A stretch of 20,588 nt of DNA from a virus (taxonomy: Duplodnaviria > Heunggongvirae > Uroviricota > Caudoviricetes): IMG/VR virus record IMGVR_UViG_2531839584_000015; one strand, 5' to 3'. This document shows, piece by piece, positions 124 to 16,806 of this stretch. Position numbers and translations under genes: made by a program. Position 1 is the stretch's first letter. Every line of letters begins with the position of its first letter. Under the pieces are notes generated by a model. The model made no database searches. It was not told the origin of the DNA and was given only the letters and a program-made list of their open reading frames with translations.

Positions 124-203
124 AACCGTAGCACGTCGTATGCAAGAACGTGCCACGGCTGGCTGATAAGCTTGTAAAAATATTGAACAGGGAGTGGAGC
201 ATT

Positions 204-851
204 CTATGAAGCTAATTTGTTTAATTTCATTTGTAGTGACTTTACTTCTTGGTCGATAATGTCGAATCCCTTATTGACAGCATCTCTTAGCTCTGCATCA
301 ATATTTTTTATCCCTTGAGCATAATCTACCATTACATTTATTTTTGCATCATGTAATCTTTTATACATGGTTTTATCTTTGTTATTGTCTGCCATGCCAA
401 TAAGGATTTTTTCATAATCCTCAATGAGTTTGTTGTTTCCTTTAAATGATTGTATTAATGAGCGTGAATATGTGTATATGTTAATTATTGAGTCTCTAGC
501 AGAATCATTTAGTTTTGCAATGACATTCGCATTTTGCTCATAGAATGTGAAATTATCATCCCCTACAGGGAATGTGAGAATCAACATTTGTCCCGGTTTT
601 ATATTATCAATGTGTGTTTTCATCCTTTTATTATATAAATTGATTAGGGTGAAAACTTCTCCCTTAACTCCTTTTAATACTGAAAGTTGTAATTCAAGGG
701 ATTCTCTTTCTGTCTCTACTTTAGACAGCTTAGCTTGTTGGGTGACTCCTTTTAGGGTAAACCATCCGCCAATAAGAGTACCAACTAGAGCTGTGAGGGA
801 GGAGGATAACCATCCAGGTATGCTATTTAAAAGATTACTAAATTCACTCAT
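204..851 (-). CDS. Hypothetical protein, 215 aa, with predicted N-terminal transmembrane helix and coiled-coil; AT-rich cargo gene
   Basis: Intact ORF in track. Hydrophobic stretch IPGWLSSSLTALVGTLIGGWFTL near the N-terminus, then a charged heptad-like segment. AT-rich codon usage unlike the backbone. No family recognised from memory. Confidence 0.55.
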   Translation of the reverse strand: MSEFSNLLNSIPGWLSSSLTALVGTLIGGWFTLKGVTQQAKLSKVETERESLELQLSVLKGVKGEVFTLINLYNKRMKTHIDNIKPGQMLILTFPVGDDNFTFYEQNANVIAKLNDSARDSIINIYTYSRSLIQSFKGNNKLIEDYEKILIGMADNNKDKTMYKRLHDAKINVMVDYAQGIKNIDAELRDAVNKGFDIIDQEVKSLQMKLNKLAS

Positions 852-909
852 TATAAGTACTCGCTAATATTGAACGATATATATATCAAATTATTATAAA
901 ACTCGTCAG

Positions 910-1344
910 CTACTGGAGAAGGCTACCTGAACTTCGAACTATTCCTGCATCCATATAGTTGATGGTCTTCTGGAGCTCTTCGATTAGGGCAACAGCTTTT
1001 GCTCGAGAAATGCATATTAGTTGATCCGGAAATTCTTGTAAGGGCCAGTTTGGTATACAGGCCATGTTATCAGTGAAGGATGCAGACAAGTAAACTTCAT
1101 TGGTAACCAGAGAATAGCTTACCTCAAAATTGGTGAGTTCCGGCAAACTGCTAACGTTTGACTCTTTTCTGCGCATAATATTATCCATGACTGTAATTAT
1201 GTACAGGTGATGGTCTTCAATTTCGAAGAGGGAGTCAAGGGGGAGTCTCAAATGAACCGTTATAGAAAAGGGGGGGATCTTTGTGTTGCTGAACTTATGC
1301 AAAATTTTTTTGCACCATAAATCCAACAACACATTCAATAACAC
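910..1344 (-). CDS. Hypothetical protein, up to 144 aa; start uncertain (track start is GTG at 1344; in-frame ATG at 1188 would give about 92 aa)
   Basis: ORF in track lies immediately upstream of, and on the same strand as, 204..851 (58-bp gap), so a two-gene operon is likely. The 5' part contains a C7 homopolymer (G7 on + strand, 1270..1276) and promoter-like AT-rich sequence, so the N-terminal extension may not be coding. Confidence 0.4.
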   Translation of the reverse strand: MLLNVLLDLWCKKILHKFSNTKIPPFSITVHLRLPLDSLFEIEDHHLYIITVMDNIMRRKESNVSSLPELTNFEVSYSLVTNEVYLSASFTDNMACIPNWPLQEFPDQLICISRAKAVALIEELQKTINYMDAGIVRSSGSLLQ

Positions 1345-1647
1345 ATTGCTGTATCACTATGAAAATAAATGTGTTTTTATTTGATTTCACACATATCACA
1401 ATTGATGCATTTTTTAGTGATTAGTAAAGACATTTCAATGGATTACCGTTAAATCATTTTAAAATCAGTAAGTTGTATCGAGTTTGTATGCTTTACTGTC
1501 ATTAACTTACTGTATGTTGATCCAGTGTATTTAACCTTGATAAACTCAGTCCAGCAACACAAAACCGCAACACATTGCATTTTGTCCCGTAGAAAAGACT
1601 TGTATGTGTGAGCTTGTTTTCTGCGCCTACGCAGATAAGGATTGAGA

Positions 1648-3045
1648 ATGCCGCGCACTGTAACACATAATCCGGATAGCCCCAATAATGACGATGTTTT
1701 AGCCGCATCTGAAAAATGGGACGCCTGTAAACCCCCCTATACCAGCGCACACATGAAAATCTGTGTTGCTGCCGCCAAAATCATCCTCGCTGCTTCCGGC
1801 GTGGCTCGCCGTTCCAAATACGAAAAAGAGAACTATCTCCGTATCGATTTCAGCAAAGCCGGTAAGGTTACATTTTACGCCGAGTTTCCAAAAAAGATGG
1901 GCCTCAAGGGTAAAAAGCTCGGCGAGTGGCCGGAGCTCGCTATCCAGCTGGCGCGCGAAAAAGCGCTAGGTATGGCTGACGGTGGCTTGCGGGCAGAGTC
2001 CGTACATGCAGCGCTGGAAATGTACCGGGATGACCTCAAAGCCAAAGTCGCCCGGCAGAAGCTGAGCCCGGACAGTTTCACAACCTACGGGGTGCGTATC
2101 GACCGGATTAAAGCAACGTTCGGCGAGCGTGAGGTGTTCAGCGACGTAACATACAATCGGCTGGTGGAAGTGCTGGACGAGTGGATCGCCACTCGCTCGA
2201 ACAATAACGCCCTGGAGTTGTTTGCCGAGCTCCGTCGGTTCTGGAAGTTCTGCGCACCTACTCTTTGTAACGGTCGCAATGTTGCTGCCAGTCTGCCAGA
2301 TGATTATGTTTCCTCCCGCGTACAGAAACCCACCCCCACACGGCTTTTTACCGATATTGAGTCAATCGCCCGGCTCTGGCTCAATGTTGCCGCCTGCACC
2401 TCTGTACACCAGAAGAATGCTGTTCGCTTCATGATCATCACCGGCGTTCGTCCGATTAATGTCCATAACCTGCGCTGGGACTACGTTCACGAGGAGACTG
2501 GCGAAATTGTTTATCCTGAAGGGGTTATCGGCATGCGAGGGGCTATGAAAACACAAAAGGCTTTCCCCCTGCCAATAACGCCGGAGATCCGGCGGATTAT
2601 CGACGAGCAGAAAGCATGGCGTGATTCAGTTCCTGAGTGCAACAGGGATTATGTATTTTTGCAGCCGCGTGATCCAATGCAGCCATTTTCAAAACGATCA
2701 CTGGATAAGCTAGTGAAAACATACAGCCCGGATGGGGCTGTAAAAGGAATAAAACATGATGGGACTGTTAAAGGGAAAGACGGTGCATTTAATACGATGT
2801 GCCGTAAATTCCTTAAGAGCAATGTTATTGCCTTGATGAAGGAAAGAGGCTATTCCCGATCAGACCGAAGGGAAATCAGCCTCCTTTGCCTTCACCACTC
2901 CAGCAAGTCAGATGACCCGATGGCAGAACATTACGACTTTTCTGATGAGATTTTGCAGGAAGAGATTGCGTTAAAGCGCGAAGCTTTCGAGGCTCACGAG
3001 CGGAGCATACTTGCGCAGGTGGCATTGCTACGGCGGCGAGGGTAA
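1648..3045 (+). CDS. Tyrosine-type site-specific recombinase (phage integrase)
   Basis: ORF 1642..3045; ATG at 1648 is preceded by TAAGGA (1636..1641). C-terminal region has a catalytic-domain-like layout (R...H-x-x-R...Y: GVRPINVHNLRWDYV, LLCLHHSSKSD, AEHYDF). Confidence 0.8.
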   Translation: MPRTVTHNPDSPNNDDVLAASEKWDACKPPYTSAHMKICVAAAKIILAASGVARRSKYEKENYLRIDFSKAGKVTFYAEFPKKMGLKGKKLGEWPELAIQLAREKALGMADGGLRAESVHAALEMYRDDLKAKVARQKLSPDSFTTYGVRIDRIKATFGEREVFSDVTYNRLVEVLDEWIATRSNNNALELFAELRRFWKFCAPTLCNGRNVAASLPDDYVSSRVQKPTPTRLFTDIESIARLWLNVAACTSVHQKNAVRFMIITGVRPINVHNLRWDYVHEETGEIVYPEGVIGMRGAMKTQKAFPLPITPEIRRIIDEQKAWRDSVPECNRDYVFLQPRDPMQPFSKRSLDKLVKTYSPDGAVKGIKHDGTVKGKDGAFNTMCRKFLKSNVIALMKERGYSRSDRREISLLCLHHSSKSDDPMAEHYDFSDEILQEEIALKREAFEAHERSILAQVALLRRRG

Positions 3046-3242
3046 TACCGGCTGCGACACTTTTGAATAAAAGCGTCGACATTGCGGCGCTCATAACGAA
3101 CTACTTTTGCACTGAAACGAATTGGTGCCAGGATAGCCCGATGACGATGCTTAATATTCCACTCACATAGCGTTTTCTGTGTAATACCTAACTTTTGGCA
3201 TACTTCATCCGGGGTGAGTAAATCGTCGGGTTTCTCGCTCAT
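2994..3242 (-). CDS. AlpA-family HTH protein (excisionase / prophage transcriptional regulator)
   Basis: 82-aa ORF with LLTPDEVCQKLGITQKTLCEW HTH typical of AlpA/Xis-like proteins. Its 3' end overlaps the convergent integrase 3' end by about 52 bp. Confidence 0.65.
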   Translation of the reverse strand: MSEKPDDLLTPDEVCQKLGITQKTLCEWNIKHRHRAILAPIRFSAKVVRYERRNVDAFIQKCRSRYYPRRRSNATCASMLRS

Positions 3243-4636
3243 GCTATACCTCTCTTTTTCATGGCATCGAGCAGGATGTCCTGCACTGTTCGTTTTGAGT
3301 TGCGCCGCTCCATCACCATTTCGTCCATAGTGTCGGCAGCAATAATGTGGTGAATAAATACCGGACGATTGTGTCCGGCCTGTATCTGCCTGGTGGGGCC
3401 GATACGTTCAATAATTTGCTGATATTGCTCCAGGTCCCACCAGTGTGAGAAAAATACCAGTATATTTCCGCCGTCTTGCATGTTCAGGCCGTGGCCCGCG
3501 CTGGCTGGGTGTGCAAAGAGAACAGGAATCTTTCCGGAATTCCAGTCGCGCAGTGTCTGTGGATCCTGGTCGAGGTGACGACCGCGAGGGAATGCTTTAA
3601 GCAAGCGTTCAAGATCGTGTTTCCAGTGATAAGCAACCAGCACAGGTGCGCCAGCTGCTTCGGTCAGTATGCTGTCCAGCGCCTGTAGTTTGGTGTCATG
3701 CAGTTCTGACCAACTTCCGGTGTCGTCTGTGTATACTGCGCCACTGGCGATTTGAAGACACTTCAGTGTCTTTGCCGCGGCGTTCGGTGCTTCGATGCCT
3801 TCGCCATTCAGCTCGAGGAACATTTCCTTTTCCATTTCACGATACTGCTGACGGGCCTTCGGCGGCATATCCACGCGGATTACGTTATGGATGGGGTCTT
3901 TGATATCGAACCAGTCGGCCGCATCTAGCGAGAGGGTCACATCGGCTAATGCTCGCTGTATTTCACCCTGTGAGTGAGCAAAAGGCTCCAGTTTAGTCCA
4001 GCTCTGTCCCGGAAACTGTATCGAGTTGAACCAGCGTGAGGTAAACGCACCGTAAGTGCGCCCGAGACGTTGCCCTTGGTCCACAAACCACGATTGTCCC
4101 CACAAATCTACCAGGCCGTTCGGTGCTGGCGTACCGGTGAGATTTATCCAGCGCCGGACATACTTATGCGCCACTTTGCCCAGTGCCGCCGCGCGCTTAC
4201 CACCACCTCGCAGCCGGAAGGATTTTAGCCGGGTGCTTTCATCTGGAATGACAATACCGAACGGCCATCGTTCTCCCAATTCTTCAACCAGCCAGACAAG
4301 GTTATCGTAGTTGATGGTGAACACGCTTGCGTTGCTGTTCGCCAGCGCCGTAGAGCGCGCTTTGGCATTACCAACAATCGGCTGCACCTCGATATTGCGC
4401 AAATGCCCCCACTTCACTGCTTCATCCGGCCAGGTGTTTGCTGCAACACGTAGCGGCGCGAGGACCAGTGCGGGGCGTGTTTCTGCCCCTGCCATAAAAA
4501 GATCTTCCAGCGCAGTGAGCGTTGCCACGGTTTTACCCATTCCCATACCTGCCCAGATGTTGCAGCGCATAATGTCGATTTGATGATTGATGATGAGATC
4601 TTGGTAGGGGTGAGGTGAAAATATAGCATAGTCCAT
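3239..4636 (-). CDS. SNF2-family (DEAD/DEAH-like) DNA helicase, phage replication
   Basis: Walker A GMGKT, motif II region IVIPDESTRLKS (DE..RLK as in SNF2 proteins), C-terminal helicase domain. RBS GGAGA upstream of ATG at 4636. Confidence 0.75.
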   Translation of the reverse strand: MDYAIFSPHPYQDLIINHQIDIMRCNIWAGMGMGKTVATLTALEDLFMAGAETRPALVLAPLRVAANTWPDEAVKWGHLRNIEVQPIVGNAKARSTALANSNASVFTINYDNLVWLVEELGERWPFGIVIPDESTRLKSFRLRGGGKRAAALGKVAHKYVRRWINLTGTPAPNGLVDLWGQSWFVDQGQRLGRTYGAFTSRWFNSIQFPGQSWTKLEPFAHSQGEIQRALADVTLSLDAADWFDIKDPIHNVIRVDMPPKARQQYREMEKEMFLELNGEGIEAPNAAAKTLKCLQIASGAVYTDDTGSWSELHDTKLQALDSILTEAAGAPVLVAYHWKHDLERLLKAFPRGRHLDQDPQTLRDWNSGKIPVLFAHPASAGHGLNMQDGGNILVFFSHWWDLEQYQQIIERIGPTRQIQAGHNRPVFIHHIIAADTMDEMVMERRNSKRTVQDILLDAMKKRGIA

Positions 4637-4703
4637 GGTATTGTATCTCCATGAATGAACTTATGTAGTAATAGCTTAATTATTTATTTCGAAAGGAACA
4701 GTT

Positions 4704-5582
4704 ATGACCTCAGCTTATACAGATGTCCAGCAAGAAGAAAATATTACTGATAAATTAGTTGTTAAATATGATGGTCCCGCACTAGCAGATCATAAAATAG
4801 ATTTGGATGTTTTAACTGAGTCATTGAATGGACTAAACAACTTGCTTAAAGAAGTTAATTTGGTTGTCAATGGCACTAGTGAGTGTATTAATGTTGAGGT
4901 TGAGCCTTTTAAGGAAGGCTCATTTGAGTATTTGATTGATGTTATTCAAAATCCACTTGACCATTTGAATATATTAAGCATTATTGGGCTTGGAGGTACA
5001 ACTGCACTCGCAGCAGGAAATACTCTCATTGACTTAATTCGTCAGATCAATGGTAGGCAAATAAAACGGTTGACTTTAACAGCGGAAGGAGACTGTAAAA
5101 TAGTTATGGATGATGGTGAGGAAATTATAGCCCCGTCATATTTCCGGCCTTTACTTGCCTCACCAAGCATACGCAAATCCTTATCGAAGTTAATTCATAA
5201 TCCTTTGCAAAAGGAAGGATACGAATCGCTTAAAATTTCAACTCAACAGGGGGTTGAGCTGATTAAGGTGCACGAAGATAATATTGAACCGTTCAGATAT
5301 AGGCGCGTTCCTGTAGTGCAGTCCTTGTCTGAAAGGGTGATTGAAGAGGCTCTAATCACATTTTTGACTATTCATAAGGATAAAAACACAGGCTGGCGAG
5401 TCAACTATGGCGATGACACAATCAGCGTGTCTATAGAAGATACTGAGTTCTTACAACGTGTTAGTACGGGAAGAGAACCTGGTGTTTTTAGTGATGCTTA
5501 CTGCGTTGATTTGCTCGTCCGTGAGAACTTGAATTCGCTGGACAAAACGTACATAGTTGTTAAAGTACACGGCATCTTATAG
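4704..5582 (+). CDS. Hypothetical soluble protein, 292 aa; first gene of AT-rich three-gene cassette
   Basis: Intact ORF with AAAGGAA RBS 7 nt upstream of ATG. A hand count of a 60-nt sample gave about 32% G+C, against about 58% in the neighbouring helicase gene. Opposite strand to the surrounding replication operon. No family recognised. Confidence 0.6.
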   Translation: MTSAYTDVQQEENITDKLVVKYDGPALADHKIDLDVLTESLNGLNNLLKEVNLVVNGTSECINVEVEPFKEGSFEYLIDVIQNPLDHLNILSIIGLGGTTALAAGNTLIDLIRQINGRQIKRLTLTAEGDCKIVMDDGEEIIAPSYFRPLLASPSIRKSLSKLIHNPLQKEGYESLKISTQQGVELIKVHEDNIEPFRYRRVPVVQSLSERVIEEALITFLTIHKDKNTGWRVNYGDDTISVSIEDTEFLQRVSTGREPGVFSDAYCVDLLVRENLNSLDKTYIVVKVHGIL

Positions 5583-5605
5583 TAGATTCACATGGGGAGG
5601 GGGCT

Positions 5606-5854
5606 ATGATTGCTTTTGCTTTTTGGCTGGCTTTTTTTAGCCTGCTTCCCGTACTATATTGGGTTCTTAAGATGGGGTTTGACCGGTTACGCTTTGCGCT
5701 TATGCCTAAACATCATCTTGTTCTTGAATGTGTTGACTCAGAAGGAGTTGTCCGTCGCGATGTCGTTGATGTCTCTTCTGATGATGAATTTTACAAAATT
5801 GCAATGAATGCCATTCGTGCTGGAAGATCAGTCAAAGGAGGGACGTTTGAGTAG
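5606..5854 (+). CDS. Small membrane protein, 82 aa (one N-terminal transmembrane helix plus acidic C-terminal domain)
   Basis: ORF preceded by GGGGAGGGGG RBS-like sequence. N-terminus AFAFWLAFFSLLPVLYWVL is strongly hydrophobic. Sits 24 bp downstream of the 292-aa gene. Confidence 0.5.
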   Translation: MIAFAFWLAFFSLLPVLYWVLKMGFDRLRFALMPKHHLVLECVDSEGVVRRDVVDVSSDDEFYKIAMNAIRAGRSVKGGTFE

Positions 5855-6377
5855 CGCTTCTAAACTTGATAGCTACGAAAAAGTCCCTCTGATTTCTAAT
5901 GTTGCTGCTGGTGGCATCACTGGTTTTTTAACATTACTGGTGTCCTCGTGGGACGGTTGTTTTCCGTATATTGGTTCTGATTTAAATACAATAAAGCCAT
6001 TTCTTTTATTAATGCTTCCCAGTTGCGCTATGTTTCTGGCGCATTGGATAAAGTCGATTGGGTTTAAATGGTCCTTAGGTAGCGTTAATCGACAGTTATT
6101 AAGCATTAATAAGAAGAAAGAAAAAGAACTTCGCCGTGATATTGAAAAGTACAAAAATGTTATTTCTAATGAAAAGATAGAGGACTTTAAAAGTCAACTT
6201 GAACAAGTATTACAAGATCGTCATGATATTATTTCTAATAATTACGCACAGAAACTAAGAGAAAGAAATTATACGCAAGAAAAATATCATGAGCATAAAC
6301 AAACCGCTGCAAATGATAATATTGAGCTGCAAAGCATACTGGAGAATCAGAAGTTCAATCAAAAAGGCATTGACTAA
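5808..6377 (+). CDS. Membrane protein with C-terminal coiled-coil, 176-189 aa; start uncertain (ATG 5808, or in-frame TTG 5847 preceded by AAGGAGG at 5835..5841)
   Basis: ORF overlaps the end of the 82-aa gene in another frame. Two hydrophobic segments (GGITGFLTLLVSS, PFLLLMLPSCAMFLAHWI), then a K/E-rich heptad region. Stop is only 4 bp from the stop of the convergent VRR-NUC gene. Confidence 0.5.
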   Translation: MPFVLEDQSKEGRLSSASKLDSYEKVPLISNVAAGGITGFLTLLVSSWDGCFPYIGSDLNTIKPFLLLMLPSCAMFLAHWIKSIGFKWSLGSVNRQLLSINKKKEKELRRDIEKYKNVISNEKIEDFKSQLEQVLQDRHDIISNNYAQKLRERNYTQEKYHEHKQTAANDNIELQSILENQKFNQKGID

Positions 6378-6381
6378 ATTT

Positions 6382-6651
6382 TTATAATATCCTCTCTAGG
6401 TTCTTGCTATCCAGCACCACTACGGTAAAGCCCAGTTTTCGCAGACGTTCATGTTCGCGCAATTGGTCAGGCCGTGGTGGCTTGCCGGGAGATTTACATT
6501 CAACGAAAACGATACGACCACCTGGTAGCAGGACAATGCGATCCGGTACCGAGCGGTGACCGGGAGATACAAACTTAAAGGCCACTCCGCCAGCTTTTTT
6601 CACTTCAGCGACGAGGTGCTTTTCGATAAGGCTTTCACGTTCATAGGCCAT
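6382..6651 (-). CDS. VRR-NUC domain nuclease
   Basis: Sequence MAYERESLIEKHLVAEVKKAGG...VECKSPGKPPRPDQ resembles the VRR-NUC (PD-(D/E)XK-like) family seen in phage replication modules. Start taken as ATG at 6651, 5 nt after the upstream gene's stop; the track ORF extends to 6678. Confidence 0.6.
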   Translation of the reverse strand: MAYERESLIEKHLVAEVKKAGGVAFKFVSPGHRSVPDRIVLLPGGRIVFVECKSPGKPPRPDQLREHERLRKLGFTVVVLDSKNLERIL

Positions 6652-6940
6652 CTGAATCCCACTCTTCAAAAAGCACATTCAATTCCAGTTTCTCTGCCAA
6701 CGCGTTTTCTGCACGTGCGCCAGCAGAGTACTCCCACTCTTTGAGCATATAAATCGTATCGGCACAGCGAAGCATTGCGAGGCAGATGTCCATATACTGA
6801 GCCTGTGTCAAACCATTGGGTAAAGTTGCGGGGTTAAGCACAACATATCCCTTGTCCGTTAGCCTCTTTGCTGCGGAATGAAAAGCCGGGCGGTTAAATT
6901 GCTCGTAACCGCTCATCGGCCCGGCAACGTAAACGATCAT
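6641..6940 (-). CDS. DUF4406-like protein (nucleoside 2-deoxyribosyltransferase-like fold)
   Basis: N-terminus MIVYVAGPMSG is characteristic of DUF4406 phage proteins as I recall them. ATGA start/stop overlap with the upstream 71-aa gene. Confidence 0.5.
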   Translation of the reverse strand: MIVYVAGPMSGYEQFNRPAFHSAAKRLTDKGYVVLNPATLPNGLTQAQYMDICLAMLRCADTIYMLKEWEYSAGARAENALAEKLELNVLFEEWDSDGL

Positions 6941-7152
6941 TCTTCGACCGCCTTACGCTTTTCACGCATATTCTGCATCAGGCAAAAATCAGATCTGCGT
7001 TCACTCCATTCCTGATTCAGTTCGTGATGTGATTCGCGGTTGGCTTTTGCCCAGACCTTCGCTGCCCGGTCATATTCGCCGGATTGTTCAAGTCGCAAAG
7101 CCTCCCTTGCAGCCCTGTAATAAAGTGGATTGTCCCGGTATTTAAATGACAT
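6937..7152 (-). CDS. Small phage protein, 71 aa, function unknown
   Basis: ORF packed between the polymerase and DUF4406 genes with a start/stop overlap. No confident family assignment. Confidence 0.45.
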   Translation of the reverse strand: MSFKYRDNPLYYRAAREALRLEQSGEYDRAAKVWAKANRESHHELNQEWSERRSDFCLMQNMREKRKAVEE

Positions 7153-7157
7153 AGGAG

Positions 7158-9221
7158 TTAATCCTTACGGTAGTGGTACGCCTCAAAACCGCCAGCGTTC
7201 AGTGGGATATCTGGCGCCCATTCGGGGTTAGTGGAGAGAAGCGCGGAAAGCGCTTTATCGTTGAAATCTTCTGTGTCAGGTGATTCGGTGATCACCTCGT
7301 CGTGTACCGTCAGCACAATGCTGTAACCGGCATCTTCGATAAGCGGCATGTTTCCGGCCAGAACGTCGCGGGCGGCCGCCTGGGTGACGTTCTCCACCAG
7401 CTTTCCGCCGTAGGTTTTGAGTCGTTGCCATTTACGCGAATAAGAGTTAACACCCATGTAGGTGATATTCCCTTGTTCGATAACCGGAGACGGGTAGCAT
7501 ACAGCGCGTCCGGATGGTAGCTGTATGCGCAGCCACGCGCCATCGCGGCGGATTTTAAGATAACCGCAATACAATGTTTTTTGCGGTGTGGCGATTGCTG
7601 TGCGGACGGTGCACTCCAGTTCGTACCAGAAATCACAGGTCGCGGGATGCGCCCGGCGCCAGAGACGTTTAAGTGAGTCGCAGGCGATAAATACCCGTTC
7701 AGAAAGCCCGTAGGTCGATTTACGTTTAACCGATTCGTCGTACCAGCTTTTCGCCTCGCGGATAACATCGCGGGGAATGTTTGGCAGTGCGGCGTTCGCC
7801 AGCCCGTCGAGATCGAGACCGTAAACCAGAGCAAAAGTGATGAAAGCCGATACACCTCCTCCATAACCCAGACCGAGTTCCATGACTTTACCGATCTGAC
7901 GCATGTGTTTATCAACATCATCTGGTGCAATATCGAAAGCTTTTGCATACGCCAGTTTATATAAGTCCGGACCCGTTCCGGCGTCGTACTCTCTGAATGC
8001 ATTCAGTTTCCATTCTTCTCCCGCCAGCCATGCCAGCATACGGCCTTCAATGTTCGACAAGTCACTTACCACCAGCTTTTTGCCTGTTGGCGCGATAATG
8101 CAGCCACGTAACGCTGAACTGGTTAGTTCCATGATATTGTCAAACAGCAGGTCTGCACATCCGGCTTTCAGTGCTTCGATGCCTTCGTCTATTTGTTCCT
8201 GTTTTAGTGAAGGGCGGGGAAGGTTCTGGGGCTGGAATAGCCGTCCGGCCCAACGACCGGTACGTGACGCCCCGCAGAACTGTAGCGTACCGCGTAAGCG
8301 CCCGTCGTGGCTTACGCCTTTCATCAGTGCCTTGTATTTACTGGTGCTGGTAGTACTGGCCTGCAGGCGGATAGCCAGCAGTTCTTTCACGGCAGATGGT
8401 AAATCGGGGTCGGCAATACGACGTTCCAGAGTACTGCGTTGCATGTCTGGTAGCTCCACACCGTAGGATTCAACAATGTGCTTAATCAACGCGTCTCGTT
8501 GTGTGGCTGCCTGCACTTCGCCATCAGTCATTTCCTGTGTACGCTTTGCCAGGCGCTTTTGTTCCTGGTCTACCGCGTCGATCGCAGCGCGTGCGAGTTC
8601 CACGTCCATGCAGACGCCCCGGTCATTGATCTGCTGATCACGATGCCAGAGCGCCAGTTCTGTCCCCTGATAATTCCACTTCGGCAGACGTTTATAGACT
8701 TCGCGCATTGCCTCGATATCCAGTCCGGCGTAAGCAACAAAGCGCCGCCATTCTTCCGGGTGGGTTTTGCTGGTGGCCCGGCGCAGTTTGCTGTTTTTCG
8801 GGCGTGGCTTACAGAACAGCTGGATCAGCGCTTTACCTTCTTTGTCCTTCGCTTTGTCTTGCGGGACGCCTAGTACTTCGCAGAGTTCCCCCAGAGACCC
8901 CGGGAGACCGTGCGCCAGCGCCTGCACCATCGTGTCGCGCCAACGTTCGACTGGCGGTGCCAGTCGCGGCATTGCATAACGCAGGACGGTGCGGTCGAAG
9001 TGAGAGTTATGAAAATAAAGCAGGGTTTCAGGGGCTGCGATTGCTTCGTATAAGCCGTGTGGAATACCACCACCGGCAGTGATATCCCATACGTTTACTG
9101 GCCCGTCGTTGATAGCCCATGCGAACAGCATCACTTCAACGCCTTCGGCATACGCATGGGTACCGTTCGTAATAGGGATTTCGCAATAGGTTTCCAGGTC
9201 GCCCCATAGTATATTGGACAT
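7158..9221 (-). CDS. Family A DNA polymerase with N-terminal 3'-5' exonuclease domain
   Basis: Exo I-like DLET near the N-terminus. Motif A DLSNIEGR, motif [13 protein letters not shown], motif C LTVHDE. Length 687 aa. Confidence 0.85.
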
Positions 9222-9267
9222 GTGTTTACCTTGGTTTTTATTCTATTAACTGATTAAAAGATTAATT

Positions 9268-9897
9268 ATGCATATGATCCAATACTTGATTGACCATACA
9301 GAGCATCTGGAGAAAATAGCTGGATATATTTTTTCATGTTTGATTGTTATGGGAGTCTGGATAAGAAAGATCATTTTTAATTATAAGTATAAAGAGCCTA
9401 AATATGTCAAGAAGTTAATTTTATATTTAGTTAAGTATGAACGTTATCTGGATAAGGAGGATAAGAGTGCCATAGAAAAAAGAATAAATGATAAAATTAT
9501 TCGTGATGCGCTGAAATTGCAATCTTCTTATAACCGAAGTGATGTTATTTACATTTGCAATAGATTAGAAAAAAGACAGTATATAAATCAGGTGATTAAG
9601 CTTCAGAATTATATAGAGAAAGATAACGGAGTGTTTTTCATCAATGTTAATTTTTCAGGTTTTTTATTTATTATTAGTCGTCTGTTTTCCTTTCTGTGTT
9701 TTGTGCTGTTTATCCTTTTTTCTATTATCTGCATTATTTCCATAGGGCAAAATGAAGGCCTTTTAAATTATCTTGTGTATATGGTTATGACAATAGTTTT
9801 AGAGACTGTTGGTTTTTGGATGTATGATACTTTCCCGTCTAAGAAGAAGATCTGTGAACTAAATAAAGAATTGAGGAAGATTAAGATTCCTGAGTGA
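9268..9897 (+). CDS. Hypothetical multi-pass membrane protein, 209 aa; AT-rich single-gene insertion
   Basis: Strongly hydrophobic segments (IFSCLIVMGVWI; FSGFLFIISRLFSFLCFVLFILFSIICIISIG; LVYMVMTIVLETVGFW). Lys/Ile/Tyr-rich, AT-rich codons. Opposite strand to the flanking replication genes. Confidence 0.55.
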   Translation: MHMIQYLIDHTEHLEKIAGYIFSCLIVMGVWIRKIIFNYKYKEPKYVKKLILYLVKYERYLDKEDKSAIEKRINDKIIRDALKLQSSYNRSDVIYICNRLEKRQYINQVIKLQNYIEKDNGVFFINVNFSGFLFIISRLFSFLCFVLFILFSIICIISIGQNEGLLNYLVYMVMTIVLETVGFWMYDTFPSKKKICELNKELRKIKIPE

Positions 9898-9915
9898 TTA
9901 TGCGCCTAATCAGCA

Positions 9916-9934
9916 GCCCGGTATTTAACCGGGC
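9916..9934. terminator. Hairpin between convergent genes (possible bidirectional terminator)
   Basis: GCCCGGT-ATTTA-ACCGGGC, a 7-bp stem with 5-nt loop in the 52-bp gap between 9268..9897 (+) and 9950..10498 (-). Flanking U-tracts are weak. Confidence 0.3.
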
Positions 9935-9949
9935 GTCTATGAAGTAGGG

Positions 9950-10498
9950 TTAAATCAGTGCTTCAGCATCAGCACCTTCGCTGATATCGTCGAAATCGTC
10001 AGCGCTTGCCACTCCGCCGACAGCGAATGCATCGCCGTCTCGCAGGAACTGGACTCCGCCGAGTGAGGCATTAATGCGTTTACCGAAATTATTGTCCTGT
10101 GCCCAGATATCGATAACGGCGTTTACATAGCACCCTGCATAGGGACGTCCATCAGCCTGAATAAGTGGCGAACGATCGCGATCAAGAACAGCTGGGCGCG
10201 CTTTGTTAGCAGCATTCAGGAAGAAATTGCCGGGGAAGCCTTCATACTCTGCTTTTTCATCACCATCATGCAGGCACAGATTGAGTTTTTTCTCCAGTTG
10301 GTTATAAATGGGCTCCCACTTCTCTCCCCATTTTTCCTTCGCTACCTGCTTCATAGCTTTACGGATTTCTTCCAGTTGTGGGTGTTTGGGTGACATTAAA
10401 AATACTGCGGAGAAACGTGGATCGCCTTCGCCGTTTACAGTTTTAGCTTCAAACAGAGACGGGAAGGCCAGACGAACATTGTTCAGCTTCAGTTTCAT
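9950..10498 (-). CDS. DUF2815-family phage protein (SSB-like)
   Basis: N-terminus MKLKLNNVRLAFPSLFE matches the conserved start of DUF2815 proteins, which usually sit next to DUF2800 in phage replication modules. Acidic C-terminal tail. Confidence 0.65.
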   Translation of the reverse strand: MKLKLNNVRLAFPSLFEAKTVNGEGDPRFSAVFLMSPKHPQLEEIRKAMKQVAKEKWGEKWEPIYNQLEKKLNLCLHDGDEKAEYEGFPGNFFLNAANKARPAVLDRDRSPLIQADGRPYAGCYVNAVIDIWAQDNNFGKRINASLGGVQFLRDGDAFAVGGVASADDFDDISEGADAEALI

Positions 10499-10513
10499 GG
10501 GTATTTCCTTAAA

Positions 10514-11815
10514 TCAGATGAGGTCTGCGGTTAGCGTATCGTCGGATACGTCGTCGAAATCATTTACAGGGTTGATATTGAGTGCGGGGCGTGGGTCTGA
10601 CTCGGGAACGATGGTGGGTTTACCATCAGCTCGTGTTATCAGTGCCTCGACTTTTGACCAACGGCGCGGACTGGCCTTTTTGATAAGTTTTTCGGCTTTT
10701 GTGGGGCTAATAAGTTTAAAGTCGAATACTTCTTCAGTTTTGTACCTGAACTGGTCCTTCAGAAGTGCGCGAGCTGCCTCTTCATCACTCCAGGCCCGGT
10801 TACCTTGTTTTCCTGTTACCAGTTTAAACCCCGGTACCGGATGTCCGGCATTGAGTTCATTGTGAACCCGGTCCCGTACTGCCTTTAGCCAGGACTCAAT
10901 AAAGTCGGCCTGGCTATAGATCTCCGCAAGCTGCTCAATGGTTAACAGAGGTACACGTGCGCTGGCATTGGTGATTATTTCGCTGACAGGCTTTGTCAGA
11001 TCTTCAAAGTCGCTGGCCGCTGTTTGTAAATGCTGCATTTTCTGGGCAGTGCAAATAGCTTTTGCTTTACAGAAGCGGCACTGTTTTTCTCCAGGTATGA
11101 AGTTTTCCAGCGGTAGTGTCTCAATGCCTTCGCATTCAGCAATATTGAGAACAAGGATCGCACTGGTTGCGGCCTCCTGTGCTCGTTTACCGAAAGACTG
11201 AAGTTCCTGCACGGTTAACGACCATTCTGAAACGTGGTTGAGCCTTGGCTGGTGAATAAATAATCTTACAGTCTCAAAGTCATACAGCATGCTGAATTGT
11301 TCGAGCGCACCCAGAGCATACAGTTGTAGTTGCTCATTTTGTTCTGCATCAATGCGGACGCCTTTGCCATATTTCAGGTCGTGGATTTGTAATTCGTTAC
11401 CAGCGATGATTATGCCGTCGGCAGTTCCGAAAGATTCTTCCACCCCCGTTATATGTGAGAAATCAACACGTTGTTCAACCAATAGTTCATTATTCTGTGC
11501 AAGAGTCCAGACCGTATCAACATACCGGCCAACGGCTTCGACCATTTCATCATCCACCTGTGGGCCAGATGTATCATCAGGATTTTCGCGAAGGGGGTAT
11601 GAGCCGAGAAACATAGAAACATTGCATCCGGCGTAGTGTTCCGGGTGGCTTTGCCTGTTTCGTAGAACTTTTTCAGCAAGCGCGTGCGCTGCAGTGCCCT
11701 CGATTGCAAAAGTTGTTTCTTTATCCGGTTGTGTGGCCTCCAGCGCCAGACTTCCTGGGCAGCGCATCCATCGATGCGCTGATGATGGAGAAAGTTGTGC
11801 ATGAACGTCTGGCAT
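10514..11815 (-). CDS. DUF2800-family PD-(D/E)XK nuclease (Cas4-like exonuclease)
   Basis: N-terminal [15 protein letters not shown] motif and a C-terminal cysteine cluster ([12 protein letters not shown]) are typical of DUF2800/Cas4-like nucleases. Confidence 0.65.
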
Positions 11816-11817
11816 GA

Positions 11818-12720
11818 TTAACCCTCCAGTGCTTTTTCAGCCAGGGTGATTACTTCAGCGAGATTTTCATCCGTTACTTCACCAAGTTTCCTGGCTCCCT
11901 GTTTTTCCAGAATTGCAATAGCTTCTGCCCGGTAACCCCCTTTTGCTAACTGGAGGATCAACCCTTCAGCTTGTTTGCGTAGTGCCGCGAAATCAATTGT
12001 ATGGTCATCTTTGGCGTCATTATTCTGGCTGGAATTTGCTGCGTCTCTGCGTGCAAATTCTTCCTGCAGCTGAAGGTACTCAACACGGTTGATCTCGATA
12101 TGGCCTTTTTTAAGCATCTCGTTCAACTTGCGTAAGGTGTGGAGTTCACTGGCTGCTGTGCCGGATACATTTTTGACGTAAAACGGCCCCGTGCGTTCTC
12201 CATCTTTGTTACTGGCCTTTTTCGGCTTAACTTCATCACGCCCATCTGCAGGTGCATCAAGTAGTTGCTCGGCAAAAGCACGTCGCTCGCCGATGGTTGG
12301 CAGGTCGTCCCAGAACTTAAGAATGTTACGGGACAGGTCCAGAAGAGCGGGTTTATGCAGTGCCCTGGCTCGTTTGACGCCCTGCAATGCGCTGTCGAGA
12401 GCATCAATCTGAACTACTCGTTTATCGCCTTCAGCATCACGGTAGGCAACAGCACGTTGCAGCATGTCTTCTGTGATAGGGGTGGCTACCGGGTAGAAAC
12501 CAGCCAGTGCGATAACGTCGCTGAACTCCAGATCATCCAGTGTCATTGCCGCTGACATATTTTCAGTTTCAGTTGCTGTATCCCGACATTCCTGCACTCG
12601 TGAAATCGTGTCAGGATGCATAACAATACCTGATGCCATCGTGCGGATAAGACGTTCAAGCAGCGCATTATGTTGTGCCAGAAGTTGATTATTAAGTTCG
12701 AGACTGGTTTCTAAACTCAT
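11818..12720 (-). CDS. Hypothetical phage protein, 300 aa, acidic
   Basis: ORF in track, tightly packed in the operon: 2-bp gap to DUF2800 and ATGA overlap with the upstream small ORF. No family recognised. Confidence 0.5.
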
Positions 12721-12866
12721 ACTGTGGTCCTCGCTACAAGGAGAATGAAAGTGATGATCAGACCGAGCGCAGTGGCAACGGCCAGACCGGTCATCAAATC
12801 GAAGTTTTTACGGCGATAACGGAGAACATCGCGCCCCGTCAGTCGATAGAAGTGTTCAGGTTTCAT
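12717..12866 (-). CDS. Small hydrophobic protein, 49 aa (not in ORF track)
   Basis: Hand translation of the minus strand gives [54 protein letters not shown] lies upstream of the ATG at 12866, and the stop overlaps the ATG of the 300-aa gene (ATGA). Confidence 0.4.
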   Translation of the reverse strand: MKPEHFYRLTGRDVLRYRRKNFDLMTGLAVATALGLIITFILLVARTTV

Positions 12867-12924
12867 CGGTTGTATTCCTTTTTTCATATCGGGGAGCGCG
12901 CTGTTGCGAGTGCGCTTTCAGACA

Positions 12925-12951
12925 TAAAAAAGCCCGTCACTTGCGGCGGGC
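12925..12951 (-). terminator. Putative intrinsic terminator inside the leftward early operon
   Basis: On the minus strand, GCCCG-(10 nt)-CGGGC hairpin followed by TTTTTT, between the zinc-finger gene and the downstream replication genes. Confidence 0.4.
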
Positions 12952-12982
12952 AAAGACTACACACAGCAATTACATGGATGAT

Positions 12983-13177
12983 TCAGTTGGTATTGTGCGT
13001 ACGTGGTACCACAAGGTTGAAGCGGACACGCCAGTGCGTTGCAATGGTATGCAGGAAAGCACCACATCCAGGGCAGTGCTCATAACATTCGTTGATTTGG
13101 TATCGTTTTGGCTTTGGTGTCTGAAGCTGTGTTTGGCAAGCAGGGCATTCACCTTTGAGCGGTTTATACGTTTTCAC
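12983..13177 (-). CDS. Small Cys4 zinc-finger protein, 64 aa; first gene of the leftward early operon
   Basis: CPAC...(17 aa)...CPGC arrangement. GTG start at 13177 with AGGAAA RBS upstream. Confidence 0.5.
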   Translation of the reverse strand: MKTYKPLKGECPACQTQLQTPKPKRYQINECYEHCPGCGAFLHTIATHWRVRFNLVVPRTHNTN

Positions 13178-13480: not shown

Positions 13481-13499
13481 GATATTTACGGTGGGAATA

Positions 13500-14123
13500 C
13501 TAACGTTTACGGCGGTAAATACGGTGTTCGATCATTACACCTATGATCTGTAAGTTCATATCTGCACTACGAAAAATAGGGTAATCAGGATTTAGGGGGA
13601 TTAATTCAAAGTCGTCGATGCCGATTCCTAATGGACGGTATTTTTTAAATGTAGCTTCGTGACCGTCGTTTTTGGCGACAACAAACTCCCCTGGTGCAGG
13701 ACATAGATCAGGATCGATGATAACAATGTCTCCTTCTTTAAACTCTGGTTGCATGCTGTCGCCATCAATACGTAATGCGAAGCATGTTTCTGGAATGTCA
13801 GAGTCTGCCAAAATATATTCAAATTCCCCTGTCAGATCTGTTATGTCTCTTGCTTCTGTAAGCTCTCCTGCCTGAACGTAACTTAATATAGGTATGCGTC
13901 TGGTACTTATCTCCGCGAGAGGCATAATATTTTTACCGTTCAGTAGCCAGTCTGGGCTACATTTCAAGGCCTTAGCCAGATCCAGAAGATTGCGCGGCTT
14001 TCTGGTTCGTCCACTTTCGATGGATTCTATGGATTGTTGGCTAACCCCTGCAGAATTCGCTACTTCCACTTGAGTCATTCCTAATTCCAAACGACGTGCT
14101 TTAAAACGGGCTGCGAGAGACAT
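13500..14123 (-). CDS. cI-like phage repressor (XRE-type HTH + LexA-like S24 peptidase domain)
   Basis: HTH LGMTQVEVANSAGVSQQSIESIE; Ala-Gly cleavage site (VQAGEL); Ser/Lys dyad context (GDSMQPEF, VVAKNDG). Start taken at ATG 14123 (MSLAARF...) with AAGGA RBS; the track ORF extends 17 codons further upstream. Confidence 0.8.
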   Translation of the reverse strand: MSLAARFKARRLELGMTQVEVANSAGVSQQSIESIESGRTRKPRNLLDLAKALKCSPDWLLNGKNIMPLAEISTRRIPILSYVQAGELTEARDITDLTGEFEYILADSDIPETCFALRIDGDSMQPEFKEGDIVIIDPDLCPAPGEFVVAKNDGHEATFKKYRPLGIGIDDFELIPLNPDYPIFRSADMNLQIIGVMIEHRIYRRKR

Positions 14124-14243
14124 GGGATTAGTCCTTCTGGGTTGTATTAATGTGTATACCCACATTAAAAACAATTTTTGTTGTATTTGACAAACCTCGT
14201 TTGTTGTTGCTAAATACCACTAAAATTGTATGAGGTGAAAGCA
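14124..14243. promoter_or_regulatory. Divergent cI/cro promoter-operator region
   Basis: Perfect inverted repeat TTAATGTG-N6-CACATTAA at 14147..14168. TTGACA at 14187..14192, followed 18 bp later by TAAATA, faces the cro-like gene. Confidence 0.5.
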
Positions 14244-14456
14244 ATGACCTTAGCGACCCGAGTAAAAGAACGACGTAAAGAACTCAAAATGACGCAAGTT
14301 ACGTTGGCTGAGCTCACAGGAGTGAGCCAGCAGGCAATAAACAGAATTGAAAGTGGTGTTATTGCTCGGCCACGTTATCTTCTTGAAATGTCTATAGCAT
14401 TGGATTGCGACCCTAATTGGCTGTTGTATGGCTCACAAAACGATAAAAAGGCTTAA
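14244..14456 (+). CDS. Cro-like XRE-family HTH regulator
   Basis: LKMTQVTLAELTGVSQQAINRIESG HTH. ATG at 14244 has GAGGTGA 5 nt upstream. Divergent from the cI-like gene; stop lies 3 bp before the primase start. Confidence 0.75.
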   Translation: MTLATRVKERRKELKMTQVTLAELTGVSQQAINRIESGVIARPRYLLEMSIALDCDPNWLLYGSQNDKKA

Positions 14457-16805: not shown

Positions 16806-16806
16806 T

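What the first reader, a model, noticed from the sequence alone, without database searches (positions are those of the whole stretch)
3239..13177. Complete replisome-type module but no structural, packaging or lysis genes
The element encodes a family A polymerase, SNF2 helicase, Prim-Pol/VirE primase, DUF2800 nuclease, DUF2815, VRR-NUC and DUF4406, plus integrase, immunity switch and Q. I find no capsid, portal, terminase, tail or lysis genes in the 19.2 kb of unique sequence. That fits a defective prophage, a satellite or PICI-like element that hijacks a helper, or a phage-derived plasmid.
Basis: inference. Interest (0 to 1): 0.5.

Follow-up and report, generated by a model that had tools for sequence, protein, structure and literature searches.

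The report
IS26-truncated prophage, late genes deleted
This is the early half of a common E. coli prophage whose 23 kb of lysis, packaging, head and tail genes were cut out and replaced by one copy of the insertion sequence IS26, so it is an ordinary defective prophage and not a satellite or a new kind of element.

Summary
The window is the whole NCBI contig APXC01000024.1 (E. coli draft GCA_000356305.2). It has 19,173 unique bases plus a 1,415-base end duplication. It encodes integrase, Xis-like HTH, SNF2 helicase, VRR-NUC, DUF4406, family A polymerase, Enc34-type SSB (DUF2815), DUF2800 nuclease, CI/Cro, Prim-Pol/VapE primase-helicase, an iteron origin and Q, but no virion, terminase or lysis gene.

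The cause is simple. The E. coli ETEC-2264 chromosome carries a prophage of about 41.7 kb at yfhL that is 100% identical to window 1386-17974 and 18795-20588. Between those two points it holds 23,368 bp running from holin to the tail fibres and the first 53 nt of the invertase pinE. In the window an 820-bp IS26 without a target duplication sits exactly there.

The satellite/PICI reading is not supported. The plasmid reading is not excluded: the contig carries an attP-type junction and closes into a circle, yet sibling assemblies show the same deletion integrated in the chromosome. Whether the circle is an excised replicating copy, a tandem copy or an assembly cycle needs the reads. Interest is low.

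The parts
1..1415 (.). Terminal duplication of the contig, identical to 19174-20588. It closes the sequence into a 19,173-bp circle.
   Evidence: 1,415 bases, 0 mismatches.
204..851 (-). 215-aa hypothetical protein of the prophage right end (35.7% GC over 204-1344). It is conserved next to pinE in this prophage family.
   Evidence: no family; the exact protein occurs in 5,846 collection blocks; in the 10 places shown it lies beside yfhH wherever the flanking genes were called, with pinE or tail-fibre genes on its other side. GC.
910..1344 (-). Small hypothetical ORF (gene callers use 910-1176, 88 aa), the last gene before att.
   Evidence: phrog_17793, unknown function, E 4.7e-43; gene calls.
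1386..1423 (.). 38-bp att core TTCACACATATCACAATTGATGCATTTTTTAGTGATTA, here in attP-type context (phage right end - core - integrase side). It overlaps the 5' end of host yfhL in lysogens.
   Evidence: three-way alignment with attL and attR of ETEC-2264; the same junction type in IMG/VR contig UViG_3300018477_000015.
1648..3045 (+). Tyrosine integrase, 465 aa.
   Evidence: PF00589, 28.5 bits against a cutoff of 27.1. RefSeq WP_001138335.1 in ETEC-2264.
2994..3242 (-). HTH_17 (AlpA/Xis-type) small DNA-binding protein, the likely excisionase.
   Evidence: PF12728, E 2.5e-5, just under the cutoff. Its position next to int is read from the sequence; the function is inferred.
3239..4636 (-). SNF2-family helicase.
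   Evidence: PF00176, E 5e-12.
4704..6377 (+). Low-GC (38%) three-gene accessory cassette (292 aa, 82 aa, 176-189 aa) on the opposite strand. It is a candidate defence system, not a virion gene.
   Evidence: PADLOC PDC-S42, E 6e-40. NCBIfam LAPAL_fam, 193.7 bits; the only phage-record homologue is beside the integrase of a Vibrio Vinavirales prophage, together with a homologous 82-aa partner. The intact relative vB_EcoM-611R5 annotates different genes in the matching interval.
6382..6678 (-). VRR-NUC nuclease.
   Evidence: PF08774, E 1e-3, below the cutoff. RefSeq names the identical protein a VRR-NUC domain protein.
6641..6940 (-). DUF4406 protein.
   Evidence: PF14359, E 6e-34.
6937..7152 (-). 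71-aa ANR / PerC-like small regulator.
   Evidence: PF06069, E 1.2e-3 (weak). RefSeq 'ANR family transcriptional regulator'.
7158..9221 (-). Family A DNA polymerase, 687 aa.
   Evidence: PF00476, E 1e-13; homologues in 1,730 phage records.
9268..9897 (+). 209-aa predicted membrane protein, a very low GC (29.5%) moron.
   Evidence: phrog_10579, unknown function. GC. The membrane character is my reading of the translation.
9950..10498 (-). Enc34-type ssDNA-binding protein (DUF2815).
   Evidence: PF10991, E 1e-42.
10514..11815 (-). DUF2800 / PD-(D/E)XK nuclease.
   Evidence: PF10926, E 5e-110; PF12705, E 4e-10.
11818..12887 (-). Two conserved early genes of unknown function (300 aa and 56 aa).
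   Evidence: phrog_6784 and phrog_11981, both of unknown function. Also present in the intact relatives.
13500..14174 (-). CI-like repressor (HTH plus S24 self-cleaving peptidase).
   Evidence: PF00717, E 2e-21; PF01381, E 1e-12.
14226..14456 (+). Cro-like HTH protein.
   Evidence: PF01381, E 2e-14.
14460..16646 (+). Prim-Pol plus VapE/D5-type primase-helicase, 728 aa.
   Evidence: PF05272, E 4e-60. PF09250 Prim-Pol, E 7e-10, on residues 77-188.
16616..16860 (.). Putative replication origin: ten GGAACYRC iterons in both orientations around a (TA)n tract at about 16735-16750.
   Evidence: 12 matches in the window against 1.8 expected, 10 of them in these 245 bp.. The origin function is inferred.
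16935..17357 (+). Q antiterminator.
   Evidence: PF06530, E 5e-42.
17389..17730 (+). 113-aa protein of unknown function, which lies between Q and the holin in intact relatives.
   Evidence: phrog_343 full length (unknown function) and phrog_15831 partial; precomputed Pfam PF26207 Phage_phiTE_015; its position.
17793..17820 (+). GC-rich hairpin followed by a T run, a terminator-like element upstream of the lost late operon.
   Evidence: -21.1 kcal/mol, z -4.5. The consensus scan did not flag it.
17975..18794 (-). IS26 (820 bp, terminal inverted repeats GGCACTGTTGCAAA; transposase ORF 18027-18749). It replaces 23,368 bp of the prophage.
   Evidence: 99-100% identity to IS26 in thousands of records. 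PF13610; flanks CGCAAATC and ACGTAATG, so no target duplication; breakpoints against the intact prophage.
18795..19296 (+). 5'-truncated DNA invertase pinE. It lacks the first 53 nt, which in the intact gene encode MLIGYVRVSTNDQNTDLQ. I take the serine in that stretch to be the catalytic one, by analogy with Hin/Gin.
   Evidence: alignment; intact PinE translation. Resolvase profile matched only from position 26 of 145.
19174..20588 (.). Second copy of 1-1415. The contig ends 30 nt into the att core.
   Evidence: sibling contig AQDN01000036.1 ends at the very same base.

Best explanation
The window is a defective prophage made by an IS26-mediated deletion.

Its parent is a temperate, contractile-tailed phage of about 41.7 kb that integrates into the 5' end of yfhL and is widespread in E. 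coli. In the parent, Q is followed by a terminator-like hairpin and then by the late genes: holin, endolysin, Rz-like protein, small and large terminase, portal, head, sheath, tube, baseplate, tail fibres with an invertible segment, and the invertase pinE. Reading these as one Q-dependent late operon is my inference from that gene order.

In this lineage one IS26 now joins a point 202 nt upstream of the holin start to nucleotide 54 of pinE, so the whole late region is gone. The deletion could have arisen by intramolecular replicative transposition or by recombination between two IS26 copies; the sequence does not distinguish these.

Everything else is untouched and identical to the intact relative. 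That includes int, the Xis-like gene, the CI/Cro switch, the replication genes (Prim-Pol/VapE primase-helicase, iteron origin, family A polymerase, Enc34-type SSB, DUF2800 nuclease, SNF2 helicase, VRR-NUC) and Q.

By inference, the remnant should still respond to SOS through CI self-cleavage, excise through Int/Xis and replicate from its own origin. It cannot lyse the cell or make or fill particles. That would explain why the assembly of this isolate closes it into a circle through an attP-type junction. This last step is inferred, not shown.
For: Shown:
1. The window is the complete contig APXC01000024.1 of GCA_000356305.2.
2. Window 1386-17974 and 18795-20588 are each one 100.0% identical alignment to the ETEC-2264 chromosome NZ_CP023349.1 and to NZ_LR882978.1.
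3. In ETEC-2264 the two segments are separated by 23,368 bp. That block holds 37 annotated CDS running from a lambda-family holin, GH24 endolysin and both terminase subunits through DUF1073 portal, head morphogenesis protein, DUF2184, DUF3383, DUF3277 and baseplate J to the tail fibre and assembly genes.
4. Base-level alignments put the breakpoints exactly at the two ends of IS26.
5. The 8-bp flanks differ (CGCAAATC and ACGTAATG), so this is not a simple insertion.
6. pinE has lost its first 53 nt, which include the catalytic-serine region.
7. The same junctions occur in independent assemblies: the right junction in AQGH01000042.1 and AQDN01000036.1, and the left junction in IMG/VR UViG_2529292837_000017.
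8. Two of those assemblies are integrated. AQGH01000042.1 reads IS26-'pinE-hyp-attR-yfhH-tadA-mltF-purL. The IMG contig reads yfhL-attL-int, with 213 of 213 host bases identical.
9. Deposited prophage records vB_EcoM-611R5, 606R2 and 689R2 share the early arm at 96.8% identity, and 611R5 (inspected in full) carries a complete late arm.
10. The retained origin and immunity parts are intact.
Against: I could not inspect the rest of the source assembly or its reads. Absence of the late genes elsewhere in that genome is therefore inferred from the contig path through IS26 and from the sibling contigs, not shown.

IS26 is longer than a short read, so the join across it depends on the assembler.

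No simple-insertion intermediate was found in IMG/VR, so the order of events is unknown.

The circular topology could be an assembly cycle. The contig ends exactly 30 nt into the 38-bp att core, at the same base as a sibling contig. That looks like a k=31 graph boundary and implies a second left-hand context (yfhL) for the core in the same read set.
Confidence: 0.9

Rival explanations
1. It is a stable phage-derived plasmid or episome. After losing its lysis and virion genes, the remnant lives as a 19.2-kb circle that replicates from its own origin with its own polymerase and primase-helicase.
For: The contig is circularly permuted, with a 1,415-base end overlap and a precise attP-type junction. 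A complete replicon is retained. A relative at 83.8% identity sits in attP configuration on the circular 76.9-kb record pE76_003 of Enterobacter sp. E76, joined to a sopA/parB plasmid segment by two direct IS26 copies. An intact relative with the attP junction exists in IMG/VR.
Against: No partition, plasmid-type Rep or addiction genes were found. The CI repressor is intact, which should keep replication off. Sibling assemblies with the same deletion are integrated at yfhL. The contig end at a branch point inside the att core implies that yfhL-core junctions were present in the same read set. No plasmid record holds the element (0 records at 80% coverage or more).
Confidence: 0.12
2. It is a phage satellite (PICI-like or P4-like) that relies on a helper phage for capsids and packaging.
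For: On the surface the layout fits: int, a repressor, a primase-helicase with an adjacent iteron origin, an AlpA-type HTH next to int, a size under 20 kb and no virion genes.
Against: The element is base-for-base the early arm of a complete prophage. Its end is an IS26 scar inside a truncated gene. No terS-like, capsid-size redirection, helper-interference or head genes were found. The terminase region, where a pac or cos site is expected, is deleted. It carries a full polymerase-based replication set, which, from my own knowledge of PICI and P4 gene maps, is not found in those satellite families.
Confidence: 0.03
3. It is an assembly artefact. The prophage is intact in the strain, and the contig wrongly joins Q to pinE through a collapsed IS26 repeat. 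Separately, the circle may be a false path through the 38-bp att repeat.
For: IS26 (820 bp) exceeds short-read length, and sibling contigs break inside it at different positions. The contig end lies 30 nt into the att core.
Against: Both IS26-phage junctions are real sequence and are seen in several independent assemblies. An intact prophage would have no IS26 at those two points. For the late block to survive between two IS26 copies, each copy would need its own 8-bp duplication, and no such junction was found in IMG/VR. The 38-bp core is shorter than a read, so a hyp-core-int path normally needs reads that span it.
Confidence: 0.05

Closest known systems
The intact yfhL-integrating prophage of E. 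coli ETEC-2264 (NZ_CP023349.1, about 2872741-2914491) and the GenBank records Escherichia phage vB_EcoM-611R5, 606R2 and 689R2 (ON470588, ON470579, ON470582)
   Same: The whole retained sequence is 100% identical to ETEC-2264 and 96.8% identical to the vB_EcoM records. It shares the att site, the gene order, the replication module, the immunity switch and Q.
   Different: The window lacks the 23,368-bp late region and the 5' end of pinE, and carries IS26 in their place. The accessory cassette at 4704-6377 and the DUF4406 gene sit where vB_EcoM-611R5 annotates other genes, including a TIR-like protein.
IS26-mediated adjacent deletions, and the circular IS26 'translocatable units' described for resistance regions (recalled from the literature, not retrieved here)
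   Same: There is a single IS26 with no target duplication, flanked by sequences that lie 23 kb apart in the parent. If the circle is real, it is formally one IS26 plus adjacent DNA.
   Different: The circle's other junction is a phage attP core, so closure would come from the phage integrase and not from Tnp26. There is no resistance gene.
The phage replication module DUF2800 - DUF2815 (Enc34 SSB) - family A polymerase - Prim-Pol/VapE - SNF2 - VRR-NUC. Its presence in Enterobacter phage Enc34 is from memory; the polymerase is shared with Salmonella, Escherichia, Staphylococcus, Streptococcus and Chi-type phages.
   Same: All the Pfam families are present, in one early gene cluster. The polymerase has homologues in 1,730 phage records.
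   Different: Nothing of note. This is a standard copy of the module.
PICI and P4-type satellites
   Same: Small size, int, a repressor, a primase-helicase next to an iteron origin, and no virion genes.
   Different: It is not an independent lineage. It has no packaging-hijack genes, no evident packaging site, its own polymerase, and an end that is an IS26 deletion scar.
Enterobacter sp. E76 plasmid pE76_003 (CP042502.1)
   Same: It is a relative of the same phage (83.8% identity over 49% of the window) in circular attP configuration, and it has been reshaped by IS26.
   Different: It keeps most virion and lysis genes and has gained a segment of about 33 kb with sopA/parB and metabolic genes between two IS26 copies. 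The window lost DNA and gained only IS26.

Membership tests
Defective prophage produced by IS-mediated deletion | A colinear intact prophage exists that contains the missing block between the two breakpoints. | tested here: met
   ETEC-2264 and NZ_LR882978.1: 100% identity on both sides, with 23,368 bp of late genes between them.
Defective prophage produced by IS-mediated deletion | The breakpoints coincide with the ends of an IS, and the IS has no target-site duplication. | tested here: met
   IS26 at 17975-18794, with flanks CGCAAATC and ACGTAATG. Alignments diverge exactly at the IS ends.
Defective prophage produced by IS-mediated deletion | No virion, packaging or lysis genes remain. | tested here: met
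   Pfam, PHROGs and NCBIfam were run on the ORFs. Two nominal structural labels were examined and rejected.
Defective prophage produced by IS-mediated deletion | It sits in the chromosome at the parent's attachment site. | tested here: inconclusive
   This is met in sibling assemblies: attR in AQGH01000042.1 and attL in IMG UViG_2529292837_000017. The window itself shows an attP-type junction.
PICI / phage satellite | Genes that redirect helper packaging or capsid assembly (terS-like, cpm/ppi/rpp, sid/psu/delta, or its own capsid genes). | tested here: not met
   No such family appeared in the Pfam, PHROG, NCBIfam or PADLOC scans.
PICI / phage satellite | An independent lineage, distinct from complete phages. 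| tested here: not met
   It is identical to the early arm of a complete prophage.
PICI / phage satellite | A packaging site recognised by a helper terminase. | not testable with these tools
   The terminase region of the parent is deleted. No pac or cos site is known for this phage.
Phage-plasmid | Plasmid maintenance functions (partition, plasmid Rep, addiction). | tested here: not met
   None were found.
Phage-plasmid | Extrachromosomal circular state. | tested here: inconclusive
   The contig is circularly permuted with an attP junction. However, its end lies at a graph-type boundary inside the att core, and the siblings are integrated.
Phage-plasmid | A complete virion gene set. | tested here: not met
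   The late region is deleted.
DUF2800 / DUF2815 / PolA / Prim-Pol-VapE / SNF2 / VRR-NUC phage replication module | All component families are present in one early gene cluster. | tested here: met
   Every family scored above its Pfam cutoff except VRR-NUC (19.5 bits against 23.8), and Prim-Pol scored only when the N-terminal part was scanned alone.
IS26 translocatable unit | A circular molecule made of one IS26 plus adjacent DNA, generated by Tnp26. | not testable with these tools
   The formal structure fits if the circle is real. But the non-IS junction is attP, which points to Int-mediated closure.

The most novel reading that the evidence does not exclude
Losing the lysis and virion genes to IS26 has turned a temperate phage into a non-lytic element that can still be induced by SOS, excise and replicate itself. 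In this isolate it persists, or accumulates, as a real 19.2-kb circle. That would be an observed first step from prophage to integrative plasmid, carrying a candidate defence cassette (PDC-S42).
Probability: 0.15. Interest if true: 0.4.

Novelty: already known. Interest (0 to 1): 0.15.

Why it matters
It matters little beyond good housekeeping. The case shows that 'a replication module with no structural genes' can be a fresh IS26 deletion of a normal prophage, and that such contigs should be checked against intact relatives before being called satellites or phage-plasmids. It is also a clean, datable example of IS26 inactivating a prophage with zero substitutions since the event. If the circle is real, it would give a simple system for asking what a lysis-less, self-replicating prophage remnant does to its host after SOS induction.

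Tried and rejected
- tRNA scan and Rfam scan of the window: nothing found.
- Consensus promoter and terminator scan of 16600-18100: nothing found. Folding does show a strong hairpin with a T run at 17793-17820.
- Literature searches for the vB_EcoM record names, the WGS accession, and LAPAL / DUF7946 / PDC-S42: no papers.
- PDB sequence searches with the 292-aa protein and with the primase N-terminus: nothing useful.
- Searches for IS26 simple-insertion intermediates at either breakpoint in IMG/VR: none.
- Search for the right IS26 junction and for the exact attP junction in IMG/VR: none.
- Search for the attP junction (with a degenerate core) and the left IS26 junction in metagenome contigs, and for the attP junction in species-representative genomes: none.
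- Looking up the integrase by exact sequence returned only the source contig, so I could not see other contigs of the source assembly.
- The 'putative phage structural protein' label of NF053583 and the 'head closure' label of phrog_15831 were considered and rejected as evidence of virion genes.
- The satellite reading was rejected because of the 100% identity to a complete prophage and the IS26 scar.

Full report
**What the window is.** A look-up of the truncated invertase by exact sequence shows that the window is the complete 20,588-bp contig APXC01000024.1 of the E. coli draft assembly GCA_000356305.2. Bases 1-1415 are repeated without a mismatch at 19174-20588, so there are 19,173 unique bases and the sequence closes on itself. 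There are no tRNA genes and no Rfam matches.

**Gene content.**
- tyrosine integrase, 1648-3045
- HTH_17 Xis-like protein, 2994-3242
- SNF2 helicase, 3239-4636
- VRR-NUC, 6382-6678 (weak in Pfam, but RefSeq gives the identical protein that name)
- DUF4406, 6641-6940
- a 71-aa ANR/PerC-like regulator, 6937-7152
- family A polymerase, 7158-9221
- Enc34-type ssDNA-binding protein DUF2815, 9950-10498
- DUF2800 / PD-(D/E)XK nuclease, 10514-11815
- CI-like HTH plus S24 repressor, 13500-14174
- Cro-like HTH, 14226-14456
- a 728-aa Prim-Pol plus VapE primase-helicase, 14460-16646
- Q, 16935-17357

I also find a likely origin just past the primase-helicase gene. Ten of the twelve GGAACYRC octamers in the window (1.8 expected by chance) lie in 16616-16860, in both orientations, around a (TA)n tract.

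**Are any virion, packaging or lysis genes hidden?** No. Pfam, PHROGs and NCBIfam give no capsid, portal, terminase, tail, holin or endolysin family for any ORF. Two labels needed a closer look.
- The 113-aa protein (17389-17730) has a partial match to phrog_15831, labelled 'head closure'. Its full-length match is to a PHROG of unknown function. Intact relatives keep this gene between Q and the holin, outside the head genes.
- The 292-aa protein (4704-5582) passes NCBIfam NF053583, 'LAPAL motif-containing putative phage structural protein'. PADLOC matches it to defence candidate PDC-S42 (E 6e-40). It lies in a low-GC cassette on the opposite strand (38% GC), in an interval where the relative vB_EcoM-611R5 annotates different genes. 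Only 1 of 50,697 phage records has a homologue: a Vibrio Vinavirales prophage, where it sits beside the integrase together with a homologue of the adjacent 82-aa gene. A virion protein would not be that rare, so I treat it as an accessory gene.

**Why the late genes are missing.** Window 17975-18794 is IS26, 99-100% identical to thousands of copies. Window 1386-17974 is a single 100.0% identical alignment to the chromosomes of E. coli ETEC-2264 (NZ_CP023349.1) and NZ_LR882978.1. Window 18795-20588 is another 100.0% identical alignment to the same two chromosomes.

In ETEC-2264 the two segments are 23,368 bp apart. That interval holds 37 annotated genes:
- lambda-family holin, GH24 endolysin and an Rz-like protein
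- small and large terminase subunits
- DUF1073 portal, head morphogenesis protein, DUF2213, a cement protein and DUF2184
- neck proteins, DUF3383, DUF3277, chaperone and tape-measure-size genes
- baseplate genes and the tail fibre and assembly genes of an invertible segment

Base-level alignments show identity up to the last base before IS26 and from the first base after it. The left break is 202 nt upstream of the holin start. The right break is after nucleotide 53 of pinE, which removes the N-terminal MLIGYVRVSTNDQNTDLQ stretch that I take to contain the catalytic serine. The 8-bp flanks of IS26 differ (CGCAAATC and ACGTAATG), as expected for an IS26-mediated deletion and not a simple insertion.

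The parent size is 19,173 - 820 + 23,368 = 41,721 bp. The deposited prophage records vB_EcoM-611R5, 606R2 and 689R2 share the early arm at 96.8% identity, and 611R5, which I inspected in full, carries a complete late arm. No complete E. coli genome in RefSeq has these IS26 junctions. The rest of the element has no substitution relative to ETEC-2264, so the deletion is recent.

**Independent support for the deletion.** The right junction (IS26-'pinE) is in two other NCBI assemblies, AQGH01000042.1 and AQDN01000036.1. The left junction (Q-side-IS26) is in IMG/VR contig UViG_2529292837_000017.

**Topology.** A three-way alignment defines a 38-bp att core at 1386-1423, which overlaps the 5' end of yfhL in lysogens. 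In the window the core is flanked on the left by the phage right end (215-aa gene and a small ORF) and on the right by the integrase side. That is an attP-type junction, which exists only in an excised circle or a tandem copy.

The same junction type, with an intact pinE, occurs in a metagenome-derived IMG/VR contig of a close relative, so this phage family does circularise.

Two sibling assemblies carry the same deletion integrated in the chromosome. AQGH01000042.1 runs IS26-'pinE-hyp-attR-yfhH-tadA-mltF-purL. The IMG isolate contig runs yfhL-attL-int, with 213 of 213 host bases matching.

The window ends exactly 30 nt into the core, and AQDN01000036.1 ends at the very same base. By chance that is very unlikely. 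It is what a k=31 graph node would do where two different left contexts enter the core. I infer that yfhL-core junctions (attL or attB) were also present in the source read set.

So the source culture most likely held integrated or empty sites together with attP-type molecules. Because a 38-bp core is shorter than a read, I think reads really spanned hyp-core-int, and I put a real circle or tandem copy at roughly 0.6-0.7. Only the reads can settle it.

**How it most likely works (inferred).** The remnant keeps an SOS-sensitive repressor, Cro, Int, an Xis-like protein, an origin and a self-sufficient replication set. Q, and a strong hairpin with a T run at 17793-17820, now face IS26 instead of the late operon. 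On induction it should excise and replicate, but it cannot lyse the cell or be packaged. Cells in which it fires would survive long enough to contribute many circles to a DNA preparation, which would explain the circular contig.

**Rival readings.**
- A satellite or PICI is very unlikely (0.03). The element is the unchanged arm of a full phage, it ends in an IS scar, and it has no hijack genes and no terminase region.
- A stable plasmid is possible but weak (0.12). It has no maintenance genes, the repressor is intact and the siblings are integrated. However, the Enterobacter record pE76_003 shows a relative in attP configuration joined to a sopA/parB plasmid segment by two IS26 copies.
- A false deletion or false circle from assembly is unlikely but cannot be ruled out without the reads (0.05).

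**Comparison and verdict.** The replication module is a well-known phage module; the polymerase alone has homologues in 1,730 phage records. The prophage family is common in E. coli: the right-end 215-aa protein occurs in 5,846 collection blocks, and in the ten places shown it lies between yfhH and the pinE / tail-fibre end of the prophage wherever flanking genes were called. IS26 deletions are a known process. Nothing here is new in kind. The finding is real but ordinary: a fresh IS26-truncated prophage.

Noticed in passing
window 4704-6377: A low-GC cassette on the opposite strand (292 aa, 82 aa, about 180 aa). PADLOC matches it to defence candidate PDC-S42, while NCBIfam calls it a 'LAPAL motif putative phage structural protein'. 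The first two genes recur as a pair beside the integrase of a Vibrio Vinavirales (PM2-like) prophage, PQ189332.1, which is an unrelated virus realm. The two database labels conflict, and its rarity in phage genomes argues against a virion role.
   Followed up: partly
window 16616-16860: A dense cluster of GGAACYRC iterons (10 copies, both orientations) around a (TA)n tract, overlapping the 3' end of the primase-helicase gene. This is a likely replication origin for this phage family.
   Followed up: partly
L020/L021 (CP042502.1, Enterobacter sp. E76 pE76_003, 76.9 kb): A relative of this phage sits in circular attP configuration on a 'plasmid' record. Its tail-fibre region is interrupted by a segment of about 33 kb bounded by two direct IS26 copies, which carries sopA/parB, a replication protein and metabolic genes. 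It looks like an IS26 cointegrate of an excised phage genome and a plasmid.
   Followed up: partly
window 20559-20588; L007 end: The contig ends exactly 30 nt into the 38-bp att core, and the sibling contig AQDN01000036.1 ends at the same base. This looks like a k=31 graph boundary and warns that the 'DTR' of this contig is shaped by the assembler.
   Followed up: partly
L028 2235-2272 (IMGVR_UViG_3300018477_000015): The attP core of a free or circular relative differs at 7 positions in the right-hand 20 bp of the core, but not in the left 18 bp. This suggests that strand exchange happens in the left part, or that the phage came from a host with another yfhL allele.
   Followed up: no
window 6937-7152: A 71-aa protein that RefSeq names as an ANR-family regulator, with a weak PerC hit. 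It is prophage-borne and identical in the ETEC-2264 prophage. As I recall, this protein class modulates AraC-type virulence regulators.
   Followed up: no
window 9268-9897 and 204-1344: Two further low-GC islands (29.5% and 35.7% GC) encode proteins with no known family. These are a 209-aa predicted membrane protein inside the replication cluster and a 215-aa protein at the prophage right end, and they are probably morons.
   Followed up: no
L001 (ON470588.1, vB_EcoM-611R5): This GenBank 'complete genome' starts at the helicase, lacks the integrase, and ends with the host genes yfhH, yfhb and tadA. It is a prophage prediction with misplaced boundaries and not a packaged genome.
   Followed up: no
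L016 (GCA_964043225.1, CAXJNM010000001.1): The yfhH-hyp-pinE end of this prophage is followed directly by chromosomal genes (a hexapeptide transferase, aroE-like and topA-like genes) instead of tail fibres. This suggests another rearrangement or truncation at pinE.
   Followed up: no
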